Source of the DNA: Eledone cirrhosa
Taxonomy: Eukaryota
DNA: 64,000 nt
NCBI GenBank assembly: GCA_964016885.1
Contig: OZ024742.1
Coordinates: 299,150,001 to 299,214,000 of the forward strand
Direction: 5' to 3'
Shown here: piece by piece, positions 55,478-60,533 of the stretch
Layout: the number at the start of each line of letters is the position of its first letter
How positions within the stretch are numbered: the stretch's first letter is position 1
The notes under the pieces: generated by a model
Seen by the model: the letters and a program-made list of their open reading frames with translations, nothing else
Told to the model about the DNA's origin: nothing
The model's database searches: none
Position numbers and translations under genes: made by a program

Positions 55478-56824
55478 CCTTGTCTGGCTTTCTGGAGAAT
55501 AGAGGAAAGGTGTTTCCTCAAAAACCAGTATGACTCTAAAAACCGGTTTGTCTGTGTGTTTACATACAGAATAGCTGGCCACTCACAGTAAAGTGACCAG
55601 TGAAAAAAACTTGGTACATCTACATATGTATACGTGTGTGTATTCATATACATACTAGTATTTCAGTATACATATATGGATGTACATCTTTGACTTAATT
55701 ATATATATATAACTTTACTGAGTTTAATTTAAAAGTAAAGTAATGCAGTATGTTTGTTGTTATTAAGCCTGTAAGAGTGACAGTGCTGCTACAAATGGAC
55801 AGTTTAATTATGTCGGCGATTGTTTAAAATGAAATTCCAATGAAGTATTCGGTTGTATATGCATATGAACAAAGGCTATCAACTACTACCCTACAGTAAA
55901 GTACAACTTGGATTATTAAGTAATCTTAAAGAAAAATAGGAGTTGAACATTTATGATTAACTTTTATGAAAAATTGGAAATCTACCAACATAATTTCATC
56001 ACTGTTATCAATCTTTGCCTGATTATCGCTTTACTGTTTGTTTCTCTTCAGATTTATTGCTATAAACCGTGTGTCATTATCTATGTATCGTGGGGATATT
56101 GTGTAAATATTGCGCCAAATTTAAGCCAAACTTGCCATTCGTCTTCTCTTGATTTCAGAGTAAATAGTAAGAAGTACAAATATTATCTGCGTGAGGTTCA
56201 ATTAACTCTGCCACTACATGAAACATGAACTCAAATAGTTCTTTTACTGTTTTCAGTAAAGCTGCCACCTTAAAAAGATTTAGTTGATAATATCATAGTC
56301 AGAGAATTCTCTTTTTTTTTTTTGTAATTATAGTAAATATTTCTTTGATCCCTTTTTACATGAAAACCCACGTTATGACACATGGACAAAGAGTAAACAT
56401 GAACACTAGTGCGCATACACATTATATATCTATGCATATATATGTATAGATTGTGTCCTAAAAAAATGCATACACACTTTGATTAGCTATACAGACAATA
56501 TTTATTATAATGCTGTTGAAGTGTGAATTCGTTGTTTTGTGACACCCGTTATCCCTTTATATATATAAATATATATTTATATATATATATATATATATAT
56601 ATATATATAAATATATATAAATATATATATAGGAACAAGTAAGACCCAGACGGCTGAGCTCAAGCCGTTTCGACGGCTAATTCCAGACTGATGATATTTG
56701 ATTTTGAAATGCGCATAATAAAATACATGGAACTCTTTAAACATCTTTTGATCTTATATATTATATATGTATATATATATATGTGTGTATATATATATAC
56801 ATATATATATATATGTATATATAT

Positions 56825-57432
56825 GGTGGCTGCCAACTCGTTTTCGAGTACGGCCACTACTATATATCCATGTAGGAGAACCCCTACCGATGCGCTGAAC
56901 GAGTGTGACTTTTTAGTCCAGCCAGCGACTTGAAAACTCTGGTACAAACACTACACTTGTGACAATTATTGACACATAGTGCTGGGCCCATGGTACCATG
57001 TGACGACAAGTGCAGAGAGATCTCCAGATATAAAGCAATGCCTGTGCCGTGAAGCTTTTATAGTGAGCAAAGGCACTGCACAAAGCCAGTCCCACTCTCT
57101 TAACCAAGATGATATTTACCAAAAATAAAAACAAGTCAACATCATTGAATACCATCAGGGTTGCAGGTGTTATATCAGAGTTTTCCTTCTCCTAGAATTC
57201 TGCCTTGACAAAGGCTAAGGGGTCATCTCTCCCGGTGATTTTGGTTGGCCATTGACTCTTAAGAGCTCCTTTGCCCTTTGACAGGTTTTGTTTTTAGTCC
57301 TGCAGGATGTCCAAAGTCACCCTCCTCACCAAGAAACCTTGGTGGGGTTGCCAGTTTAGTCGCCAACGACCCGACCATGGGACGGGTTGTACTGGAATAC
57401 ATGTTACCAGTAGCACCAACTGGTGACCTGAC
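56825..57432 (-). mobile_element. 608-bp non-autonomous RTE-derived element, copy 2
   Basis: As copy 1. Finger [23 protein letters not shown] at ~56884-56955. Confidence 0.8.
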
Positions 57433-57967
57433 ATAATGTATATATATATATATGTATATATATACATATATATATACATGTATATATGCATATATATATG
57501 CATAAATATATATATGTATATACATATATATGTATATATATATGTATATATATATATATGTATATATATATATATATATATATATATATATATGTATATA
57601 TATATGTATATATATATATATGTATATATATATATATATATATATATATATATATATATATATATATATATATATATATATACATATATATACATATACA
57701 TATATATATACATGTATATATGCATATATATATGCATATATATATGTATATATGTATATATATATACATATATGTATATATATATATATACATATATGTA
57801 TATATGTATATATATATATACATAAATATATATATATATATATATACATACATATATATATATATATACACACATATATATATATATATACACACACATA
57901 TATATATATATACACACACATATATATATATATATATACACACACATATATATATATACATATATAA

Positions 57968-58316
57968 TATATAAGATCAAAAGATGTTTAAAAGTGTTCC
58001 ATGTATTTTATTATGCGCATTTCAAAATCAAATATCATCATACGATGACATTGGCGTTTTCGTCATATAAAATAAGGAGACATGATATGAAGGTTAATAA
58101 ATAGTTGTGAATAGTGCAGTTTTAAATCAATTATATGTTTTAAATAAATTATATGTTGATTTAAACCTGCACTATTCACAAGTGTTTTTTAACATTCATA
58201 TCATGTCTCCCTATTTTATCTGACGAAAACGCAAATGTCATCGCATGTTGATATTTGTTTTTGAAATGCGCATAATAAAATACATGGAACTCTTTTAACC
58301 ATCTTTTGATCTTATA
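57968..58316. mobile_element. ~350-bp palindromic element with hammerhead in each arm
   Basis: Inverted arms centred near 58140. Repeated at ~59647-59993. Degenerate relative at ~3490-3600. Confidence 0.85.
58201..58287 (+). ncRNA. Type I hammerhead ribozyme
   Basis: tcatg-tctccc-tattttat-CTGACGA-(14-bp helix II, 1 mismatch)-GAAA-tgcgca-TA-ataaaata-catgg. Confidence 0.88.
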
Positions 58317-58553
58317 TATTATTTATACTCCAGTCCTACAAACTGTACAATGCTACTTATCCGATATCTGCATTGCTTTATTGTACTAAAATATAACTCA
58401 CCTCCTACATTATATACATATATATATATATATACATACATATATATACATATATATATATATATATATATATATATATATATATATATATATATATATA
58501 TATATATATATATACACATGTATATATATATTTACATATGTATATATATATAT

Positions 58554-59161
58554 GGTGGCTGCCAACTCGTTTTCGAGTACGGCTACTACTTTATATCCAT
58601 GTAGGAGAACCCCTACCGATGCGCTGAACGAGTGTGACTTTTTAGTCCAGCCAGCGACTTGAAAACTCTGGTACAAACACTACACTTGTGACAATTATTG
58701 ACACATAGTGCTGGGCCCATGGTACCATGTGACGACAAGTGCAGAGAGATCTCCAGATATAAAGCAATGCCTGTGCCGTGAAGCTTTTATAGTGAGCAAA
58801 GGCACTGCACAAAGCCAGTCCCACTCTCTTAACCAAGATGATATTTACCAAAAATAAAAACAAGTCAACATCATTGAATACCATCAGGGTTGCAGGTGTT
58901 ATATCAGAGTTTTCCTTCTCCTAGAATTCTGCCTTGACAAAGGCTAAGGGGTCATCTCTCCCGGTGATTTTGGTTGGCCATTGACTCTTAAGAGCTCCTT
59001 TGCCCTTTGACAGGTTTTGTTTTTAGTCCTGCAGGATGTCCAAAGTCACCCTCCTCACCAAGAAACCTTGGTGGGGTTGCCAGTTTAGTCGCCAACGACC
59101 CGACCATAGGACAGGTTGTACTGGAATACATGTTGCCAGTAGCACCAACTGGTGACCTGAC
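58554..59161 (-). mobile_element. 608-bp non-autonomous RTE-derived element, copy 3
   Basis: Near-identical to copy 2. Confidence 0.8.
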
Positions 59162-59877
59162 ATAATGTATATATATATATATGTATATATATACATATAT
59201 ATATACATGTATATATATATGCATAAATATATATATGTATATACATATATATGTATATATATATGTATATATATATATATATATATATATATATATATAT
59301 ATATATATATATATATATATATATATATATATATATATATATATATATATATACATATATATACATATACGTATATATATACATGTATATATGCATATAT
59401 ATATGCATATATATATGTATATATGTATATATATATACATATATGTATATATATATATATACATATATGTATATATGTATATATATATATACATAAATAT
59501 ATATATATATATATATATATATTTACATACATATATATATATATACACATATATATATATATATATATATACACACACATATATATATATATACACACAC
59601 ATATATATATATATATACACACACATATATATATACATATATAATATATAAGATCAAAAGATGTTTAAAAGTGTTCCATGTATTTTATTATGCGCATTTC
59701 AAAATCAAATATCATCATACGATGACATTGGCGTTTTCGTCATATAAAATAAGGAGACATGATATGAAGGTTAATAAACAGTTGTGAATAGTGCAGTTTT
59801 AAATCAATTATATGTTTTAAATAAATTATATGTTGATTTAAACCTGCACTATTCACAAGTGTTTTTTAACATTCATA

Positions 59878-59963
59878 TCATGTCTCCCTATTTTATCTGA
59901 CGAAAACGCAAATGTCATCGCATGTTGATATTTGTTTTTGAAATGCGCATAATAAATACATGG
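59878..59963 (+). ncRNA. Type I hammerhead ribozyme (tandem copy)
   Basis: Same as 58201-58287, with a 1-nt deletion in the helix I 3' strand. Confidence 0.82.
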
Positions 59964-60227
59964 AACTCTTTTAACCATCTTTTGATCTTATATATTATTT
60001 ATACTCCAGTCCTACAAACTGTACAGTGCTACTTATCCGATATCTGCATTGCTTTATTGTACTAAAATATAACTCACCTCCTACATTATATACATATATA
60101 TATATATATATACATACATATATATACATATATATATATATATATATATATATATATATATATATATATATATATATATATATATATATACACATGTATA
60201 TATATATTTACATATGTATATATATAT

Positions 60228-60533
60228 GGTGGCTGCCAACTCGTTTTCGAGTACGGCTACTACTTTATATCCATGTAGGAGAACCCCTACCGATGCGCTG
60301 AACGAGTGTGACTTTTTAGTCCAGCCAGCGACTTGAAAACTCTGGTACAAACACTACACTTGTGACAATTATTGACACATAGTTTTGGGCCCATGGTACC
60401 ATGTGACGACAAGTGCAGAGAGATCTCCAGATATAAAGCAATGCCTGTGCCGTGAAGCTTTTATAGTGAGCAAAGGTACTGCACAAAGCCAGTCCCACTC
60501 TCTTAACCAAGATGATATTTACCAAAAAGAAGA
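60228..60533 (-). mobile_element. RTE-derived element, copy 4 (3' half only)
   Basis: Matches the first ~305 bp (plus-strand) of the other copies, then runs into microsatellite. Confidence 0.8.

What the first reader, a model, noticed from the sequence alone, without database searches (positions are those of the whole stretch)
56690..60533. 1.7-kb composite tandem repeat punctuated by an intact hammerhead
Seen: the unit is HHR palindrome, (TA)n, 608-bp RTE-derived element, (TA)n. The plus-strand HHRs at 58220 and 59897 (1677 nt apart) are well formed: 8-bp helix I with a distal bulged extension, 14-bp helix II, palindromic AUGCGCAU, A17. The array begins at ~56690 in the middle of an HHR (3' half only). 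Inference: the tandem array could come from reverse transcription of a ribozyme-processed, possibly circular, RNA that captured unrelated cargo. The simpler explanation is unequal crossover or slippage between microsatellites.
Basis: partly seen in the sequence, partly recalled or inferred. Interest (0 to 1): 0.72.

Follow-up and report, generated by a model that had tools for sequence, protein, structure and literature searches.

The report
Ordinary transposon-mediated duplication, not ribozyme circle
Two common jumping genes sit side by side in TA repeats here, and a 1.7-kb stretch holding them is present twice, most likely copied by ordinary DNA recombination between two similar copies of one of them, with the self-cutting RNA motif only a passenger.

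Summary
The repeat is real in the assembly, but it is about 2.2 copies of one local unit, not a mobile array. The hammerhead 'palindrome' plus the 84 bases after it is the 3' end of an abundant Penelope-like element (Hydra-type motifs) with its usual inverted arm. The 610-bp cargo is a separate abundant bipartite RTE-like element. Both favour TA tracts. The unit's private junction occurs twice in 3.0 Gb, both here. The middle cargo copy is a mosaic: identical to copy 3 over 156 bases, then to copy 1 over 516; copies 1 and 3 differ like independent insertions. This marks recombination between two direct repeats, crossover 58592-58709, not at a ribozyme site or in TA. The 'half hammerhead' at 56689 is an inverted copy of the left arm. 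Hammerhead 2 has a helix I deletion, and both are predicted to be trapped by the antisense arm. No long reads were available; a haplotype misjoin remains possible. The scan's notes show nothing like this stretch, though other retrozyme families are noted in this genome.

The parts
56629..56689 (-). Fragment of another high-copy repeat, with a GAAAC-stem-GUC stretch on the minus strand, cut off at the junction with the half hammerhead
   Evidence: (D15); 18 HSPs in 400 kb of sampled genome; the junction occurs once in the genome; hammerhead nature read by eye only
56689..56824 (+).
   Evidence: 94.9% to the reverse complement of 57904-58040; shares 2 of 3 left-arm variants in the stretch, each 0 of 47 in other arms
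56825..57434 (-). Cargo copy A1: full-length bipartite non-autonomous RTE-like element (LINE 5' region joined to the last codons with a C2H2 motif and 3' UTR)
   Evidence: 1202 candidates, 40 scored at 98-100%; both ends homologous to the LINE in L067
57435..57974 (.). Interrupted (TA)n tract T1, copy 1
   Evidence: aligns to copy 2 with 3 mismatches and 8 gap events
57975..58140 (-). Inverted short arm of the Penelope-like insertion; hammerhead core C3 changed to A
   Evidence: 92% to the right arm over 165 bp
58124..58167 (+). Private inversion junction between the two arms
   Evidence: 2 matches in the genome with up to 2 mismatches, both in this array
58150..58326 (+). Right arm (pLTR 3' part) with type I hammerhead, core at 58220, predicted cut after 58274
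   Evidence: 1167 candidates, 40 scored at 96-100%
58327..58410 (+). 84-bp tail of the Penelope-like element, present on one arm only
   Evidence: family HSP ends cluster at 58327 and 58409-58410
58411..58553 (.). (TA)n tract T2, copy 1
   Evidence: 0 mismatches and 3 gap events against copy 2
58554..59163 (-). Cargo copy A2, a mosaic: A3-like up to about 58591, A1-like from 58710
   Evidence: 0 of 156 differences to A3, 0 of 516 to A1
58592..58709 (.). Inferred crossover interval
   Evidence: between the last A3-type and the first A1-type diagnostic site
59164..59651 (.). (TA)n tract T1, copy 2
59652..60086 (+). Second copy of inverted arm, right arm and tail; core at 59897; 1-base deletion in helix I
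   Evidence: 433 of 436 identical to copy 1
60087..60227 (.). (TA)n tract T2, copy 2
60228..60533 (-). Cargo copy A3: 5'-truncated copy (3' 306 bp), likely an independent insertion
   Evidence: 7 of 305 differences to A1, median 6 among 378 pairs of other copies; majority alleles where A1 and A2 have rare ones

Best explanation
This is a single-locus tandem duplication of about 1.7 kb, most likely made by DNA recombination between two separately inserted, same-direction copies of an RTE-like element that flanked a Penelope-like insertion. Shown: both components are abundant dispersed families that sit in microsatellites; the composite occurs only here; the middle cargo copy is a mosaic of the outer two. 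Inferred order: (1) a short Hydra-type Penelope-like copy inserted into a TA tract, giving the inverted arm, hammerhead arm and tail; (2) a fold-back or template switch copied the left arm's end and TA flank in inverted form to 56689; (3) a full and a 5'-truncated RTE-like copy came to flank the insertion (timing relative to steps 1-2 not resolved); (4) unequal crossover or homology-driven template switching between them, within 58592-58709, doubled the interval. The hammerhead is a passenger of the pLTR.
For: Mosaic: A2 vs A3 0 of 156 differences (11 of 378 pairs of other copies reach 0), A2 vs A1 0 of 516 (0 of 378 reach 0), A1 vs A3 7 of 305 (median 6 for other pairs). A2 and A3 share an allele absent from A1 and from 28 of 28 other copies; A1 and A2 share alleles seen in 2, 9, 7 and 1 of 28. 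Private junction: 2 matches, both here. Left arm: 2 of 40 scored hits at 100%, both here, the other 38 at 93-95%. The other family lay within 1.5 kb in 1 of 28 hammerhead loci (plus one 58-bp, 81% hit) and 2 of 28 cargo loci, never with this junction. Inverted short arm in 24 of 36 family loci with a full arm; RT and GIY-YIG-like ORF upstream in L063 and L065. TA tracts copied whole. The same precondition (full plus truncated cargo copy in tandem) turned up in 1 of 40 sampled 10-kb stretches (L094). Recombined repeats at duplication junctions are described in PMC9675761 (passages).
Against: The mosaic rests on 7 diagnostic sites, only 2 on the A3-like side, two others being the last bases of A3. 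No reads span the array, and a haplotype misjoin would give the same mosaic. A1 and A2 differ at 3 sites clustered in the last 56 bases against 0 in the preceding 516, unexplained. The half arm lacks one of three left-arm variants, so step 2 needs a later mutation. Pfam found no family in the two Penelope-like ORFs; no tree was built. Genome DNA searches scored 40 of about 1100-1200 candidates each.
Confidence: 0.78

Rival explanations
1. Assembly artefact: two haplotypes of the single unit A1-T1-P-T2-A3 were joined through the cargo repeat, giving a false duplication.
For: It predicts the same mosaic A2. The unit copies differ by about 0.5% (5 substitutions and one 1-base deletion in about 1000 non-TA bases), a level that allelic divergence could give. 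No read or contig spanning the locus was found.
Against: The window has no N and resolves TA tracts of about 6 kb, which suggests long reads that would span 3.8 kb (inference; the read type is not known). The joining repeat is only 306 bp at 97.7% identity.
Confidence: 0.1
2. One source unit was amplified by slippage or crossover in the TA tracts, and gene conversion later mixed the cargo copies.
For: Long TA tracts border every part; A3 ends abruptly in a TA tract; the clustered A1/A2 differences hint at conversion.
Against: Needs at least three reversions or conversions: A3 has the majority allele at two sites where A1 and A2 carry rarer ones, and A1 lacks the allele private to A2 and A3. 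Both TA tracts are copied end to end. A truncated cargo copy ending in a microsatellite is also seen in L094.
Confidence: 0.08
3. One reading: a ribozyme-cut, perhaps circular, 1.68-kb RNA was reverse transcribed into a tandem array by Penelope-like enzymes.
For: Two direct hammerhead cores now flank a unit; the family core is intact in 37 of 47 other arms; autonomous-type ORFs exist; tandem type I hammerhead retrozymes are known in animals (PMC7229834, passages) and noted in this genome by earlier AI notes.
Against: No donor copy. Such a circle needs two direct hammerheads beforehand, whereas the two here are copies of one insertion (433 of 436, same junction). Copies from one template would not make a mosaic. 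Array ends lie in the cargo. Forcing the hammerhead fold costs 6.0 kcal/mol alone but 72-74 kcal/mol with the antisense arm upstream (equilibrium prediction only). Unit is 1.7 kb against 150-450 bp for described retrozymes.
Confidence: 0.03

Closest known systems
Transposable element-mediated tandem duplication (TEMR; PMC9675761, passages and Fig. 1 legend read)
   Same: Two same-family, same-orientation repeats flank the duplicated interval; a recombined repeat marks the junction; size (1.7 kb) near the reported median for such duplications (1,085 bp).
   Different: Substrate is a bipartite RTE-like element, not Alu or L1; the cargo happens to include a hammerhead; not validated by reads.
Hydra-clade Penelope-like elements (PMC8557442, section 11 and passages read)
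   Same: C-terminal GIY-YIG-like domain, CxCX5C linker, CxxC and CxH motifs, hammerhead in the 3' repeat, (TA)n targets, inverted 5'-truncated copy, tail on one end.
   Different: Tail is about 83 nt against the 30-40 bp described; RWK and DKT motifs not seen in the incomplete ORFs examined; no tree built; the copy here has no coding part.
Bipartite non-autonomous RTE LINEs such as RTESINE1/2, WALLSI3, Bov-A (PMC5786205, passages read)
   Same: LINE 5' region joined to the LINE 3' end, microsatellite tail, high copy number.
   Different: Direct autonomous partner not found; the LINE in L067 is a relative (88% and 69% DNA identity in the 5' part, 43% over 37 C-terminal residues).
Metazoan non-LTR retrozymes (PMC7229834, passages; bioRxiv 10.64898/2026.07.22.740005, part 1 of 5)
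   Same: Type I hammerhead with short palindromic helix III, once per tandem unit.
   Different: Single locus, 1.7-kb unit made of other elements, antisense arm in every unit, second ribozyme damaged, ends not at ribozyme or pLTR boundaries.

Membership tests
Type I hammerhead ribozyme | CUGANGA and GAAA core with NUH cut site | tested here: met
   both plus-strand copies match; minus arms and the half arm do not
Type I hammerhead ribozyme | Helices I, II, III can form | tested here: inconclusive
   copy 1: 8-bp, 13-of-14 and 2-bp helices at a cost of 6.0 kcal/mol; copy 2: helix I broken after 5 bp, 7.8 kcal/mol; no Rfam match
Type I hammerhead ribozyme | Self-cleavage | not testable with these tools
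   needs an in vitro assay
Penelope-like element, Hydra clade | RT followed by C-terminal GIY-YIG endonuclease in the parent family | tested here: met
   YRDD/FRDD and IY-x-YFG motifs in that order in L063 and L065, upstream of the hammerhead arm; by motif only, Pfam gave 0 families
Penelope-like element, Hydra clade | CxCX5C linker, CxxC and CxH motifs | tested here: met
   all three in L063; linker in L065, whose frame breaks before the others
Penelope-like element, Hydra clade | RWK and DKT motifs | tested here: inconclusive
   not found in two ORFs that lack the N-terminus
Penelope-like element, Hydra clade | Inverted truncated copy, one-sided tail, (TA)n target | tested here: met
   24 of 36 loci with inverted arm; 68 of 71 HSP ends in two clusters; TA/CA-type tract after the tail in 26 of 28 loci by eye
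Penelope-like element, Hydra clade | Phylogenetic placement of RT | not tested
   no reference set fetched
Bipartite non-autonomous RTE | Both ends homologous to one LINE type, interior missing | tested here: met
   5' part to the region upstream of the L067 ORF, 3' peptide to its C-terminus; L067 has RVT_1, E 1.1e-20
Bipartite non-autonomous RTE | Parent belongs to the RTE clade | tested here: inconclusive
   endonuclease and RT motifs judged RTE-like from recall; PMC5786205 lists RTE, Ingi, Vingi and R2 as sources of bipartite elements; no tree
Non-LTR retrozyme | Unit dispersed as a family | tested here: not met
   junction found twice, both here
Non-LTR retrozyme | Short unit (150-450 bp) with a complete hammerhead in each copy | tested here: not met
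   1.7-kb unit; second helix I has a deletion
Non-LTR retrozyme | Unit-length linear and circular RNA | not testable with these tools
   no RNA run could be laid (see Tried and rejected)
TE-mediated duplication | Junction within two same-family, same-orientation repeats giving a recombined copy | tested here: met
TE-mediated duplication | Non-duplicated allele or spanning reads | not testable with these tools
   no long reads listed

The most novel reading that the evidence does not exclude
A chance DNA duplication has put two direct hammerheads around 1.68 kb of unrelated sequence, the first step by which a retrozyme could be born from a Penelope pLTR; if the ribozymes cut co-transcriptionally or as a dimer despite the antisense arm, the locus would release a unit-length, possibly circular RNA that Hydra-type enzymes could mobilise.
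Probability: 0.04. Interest if true: 0.6.

Novelty: new member of a known kind. Interest (0 to 1): 0.15.

Why it matters
Little as it stands: one small structural variant built from known kinds of element. It is a useful negative example, since a tandem repeat with one hammerhead per unit can arise by plain DNA recombination and would resemble a retrozyme in motif-plus-tandem screens. If the novel case held, it would show a route from Penelope pLTR to cargo-carrying retrozyme. The family's two fixed 3' ends 83 nt apart are a small, testable extension of the Penelope 'tail' rule.

Tried and rejected
Rfam on the whole window, on the palindrome and on the cargo: no hammerhead at 58220 or 59897 and no HDV-like ribozyme match in the cargo; the other hits were hairpin and TA noise below gathering scores. 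My own hammerhead scanner missed 58220 because it demanded four straight pairs at the base of helix II, so its count of 1 in 400 kb is no measure of density. Naiad assignment, considered from recalled motifs, was rejected: the endonuclease is C-terminal and a hammerhead is present. A minor subfamily as source of the left-arm variants: not seen among 40 scored of 1106 candidates. Sequencing runs: 11 listed, no RNA holder listed, no long-read run listed, best share 0.26. Laying four runs each on 58100-58410 and 56632-56756 showed deep family coverage but no listed piece bridging either private junction; this says nothing for or against the array. Enrichment of the two families next to each other: 2 of 28 cargo loci (about 84 kb of flank) against 2 loci in 400 kb sampled; too few to call. 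Earlier findings near the locus and by sequence: none. I make no claim that anything is absent from print; four paper searches were run. No supplements were read; Hydra consensus files of PMC8557442 could bear on the family's identity and tail length.
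Full report
Setting. The window is G000:C3:299150001-299214000 of a 3.0-Gb genome in 1796 contigs, 31% G+C, without N and rich in TA tracts. Earlier AI notes call it cephalopod; I did not test that.

Observation. The sequence and repeat scans show three cargo starts (56825, 58554, 60228), two full palindromes and a half arm at 56689. The hammerhead cores at 58220 and 59897 are 1677 apart. Copy 1 has an 8-bp helix I with a bulged extension, a helix II with 13 of 14 positions paired, a 2-bp helix III closed by the palindromic loop, and AUA at the cut site. 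Copy 2 has lost one A in helix I. The minus-strand arms have A in place of C3. Rfam does not detect these ribozymes.

The hammerhead segment is a Penelope-like 3' end. The family ends at 58410, before a TA/CA-type tract in 26 of 28 other loci by eye. Ten extended loci share long upstream sequence; L063 and L065 hold ORFs with a Y/FRDD motif, a CxCX5C linker and a GIY-YIG-like motif, and L063 also has CxxC and CxH. These match the Hydra clade as described in section 11 of PMC8557442. Pfam found nothing in these two ORFs, RWK and DKT were not seen, and no tree was built, so the clade is likely, not proven. An inverted short arm lay within the fetched stretch in 24 of 36 loci with a full arm; of 71 HSPs in 42 loci, 31 ended at query position 172-179 and 38 at 254-261 less one counted below, that is 30 at 178-179, 37 at 260-261, 1 at 172, 1 at 254 and 2 elsewhere (loci were picked by these queries, and two of them, L117 and L118, may be duplicates of each other). 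Inverted truncated copies and a one-sided tail are the described Penelope layout (PMC8557442 passages; PMC11167929 part 1 of 4 and passages). The palindrome is therefore ordinary.

The cargo is a separate family. A search with 56826-57434 gave 1202 candidates; the 40 scored were full length at 98-100%, set in TA, CA or TACA tracts. On the minus strand its 5' part matches the region upstream of an endonuclease-RT LINE in L067 (88% over 78 bp, 69% over 167 bp) and its last codons match that LINE's C2H2 C-terminus (43% over 37 residues) (RVT_1 E 1.1e-20). This is the bipartite non-autonomous LINE design of PMC5786205 (passages); the RTE label rests on recalled motifs and that paper. In 40 evenly chosen 10-kb stretches from seven large contigs there were 4 cargo HSPs at 88% or more and 3 hammerhead-family HSPs in 2 stretches, so each family probably has on the order of ten thousand copies (rough).

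The composite is local. The arm junction occurs twice in the genome with up to 2 mismatches, both here. The left arm has 2 perfect hits, both here; the other 38 scored are 93-95%. The junction at 56689 occurs once. The partner family lay within 1.5 kb in 1 of 28 other hammerhead loci (plus one weak 58-bp hit) and 2 of 28 other cargo loci, in other arrangements.

How it was duplicated. Against 28 other copies plus one at 42441, A2 and A3 share a T that no other copy has, while A1 and A2 share four minority alleles, at two of which A3 has the majority base and beyond two of which it does not reach. A2 equals A3 over its first 156 aligned bases and equals A1 over 516 bases from column 39; A1 and A3 differ at 7 of 305, against a median of 6 for 378 pairs of other copies. 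The simplest reading is that A1 and the 5'-truncated A3 were separate insertions on either side of the Penelope-like copy, and that recombination between them within 58592-58709 doubled the interval. The TA tracts were carried whole (T1: 3 mismatches, 8 gaps; T2: 0 mismatches, 3 gaps) and the palindrome-plus-tail copies differ at 3 of 436, so the event is recent. L094, one of the 40 sampled stretches, holds a full and a truncated cargo copy in tandem, the same precondition. PMC9675761 (passages) describes such duplications with a recombined repeat at the junction. Against this reading: only 7 sites are diagnostic; 3 A1/A2 differences cluster in the last 56 bases; and a haplotype misjoin would look the same.

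The half arm. 56689-56824 is the reverse complement of 57904-58040 (94.9%), TA interruptions included. It shares two left-arm variants found in 0 of 47 other arms but not a third that both left arms carry. It is thus likely an older inverted copy, perhaps from fold-back at the self-complementary TA tract (inference), joined to a different repeat. It is not the first unit of the array.

The RNA route. A circle needs two direct ribozymes first; here the two are copies of one insertion. Copies from one template would not be mosaic, no donor exists in the assembly, and the ends are not at cut sites. Forcing the ribozyme fold costs 6.0 and 7.8 kcal/mol for the motifs alone (6.0 for the family copy L006) but 74 and 72 kcal/mol once the antisense arm is present; any transcript running from unit 1 to ribozyme 2 contains that arm. 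These are equilibrium predictions and do not exclude fast or dimeric cleavage. Described retrozymes have 150-450-bp units in many copies (PMC7229834, passages). In one Penelope element, ribozyme cleavage was not needed for insertion in vitro (PMC11167929).

Verdict. Observation partly confirmed; the circular-RNA reading is not supported; transposon-mediated tandem duplication at 0.78, misassembly 0.10, single-source amplification with conversion 0.08, RNA origin 0.03. Interest 0.15.

Noticed in passing
window 54932-55700: 468-bp-period dimer, 99% identical, with type I hammerhead cores at 54972 and 55440 (Rfam HH9 37.7 bits, below the 52 cut-off).
   Followed up: partly
family of window 58150-58410 (L003-L030, L061-L070, L116-L125): Two fixed 3' ends 83 nt apart (58327 on inverted arms, 58410 on direct arms), a tail about twice the 30-40 bp described for Penelope-like elements.
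   Followed up: partly
window 59108-59135 vs 57379-57406: All three A1/A2 differences beyond the crossover cluster in the last 56 bases next to the TA tract, against 0 in 516 before; unexplained.
   Followed up: no
window 57975-58140: The left arm carries 7 substitutions against the family in about 140 bases, the right arm 2; unexplained asymmetry, small numbers.
   Followed up: partly
window 42441-43049: A fourth, independent full-length cargo copy (21 of 609 differences to A1) between TA tracts of about 0.9 and 6 kb.
   Followed up: yes
window 56629-56689, 53352-53520 and others: Another abundant repeat, often in inverted pairs (18 HSPs in 400 kb), with a GAAAC-stem-GUC stretch on the minus strand that looks like a hammerhead 3' half; possibly a second Penelope-like family.
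   Followed up: no
window about 61460-63560: RT-bearing LINE fragment right after the array's last TA tract (RVT_1, E 6.2e-32).
   Followed up: no
window 3362-3642: Older, 76-80% identical relative of the hammerhead palindrome.
   Followed up: no
L079:9459 (minus strand): A type I hammerhead-like motif of another family in a sampled stretch.
   Followed up: no
L067:3100-7030 (minus strand): Near full-length endonuclease-RT LINE with frame breaks, related at both ends to the cargo.
   Followed up: partly
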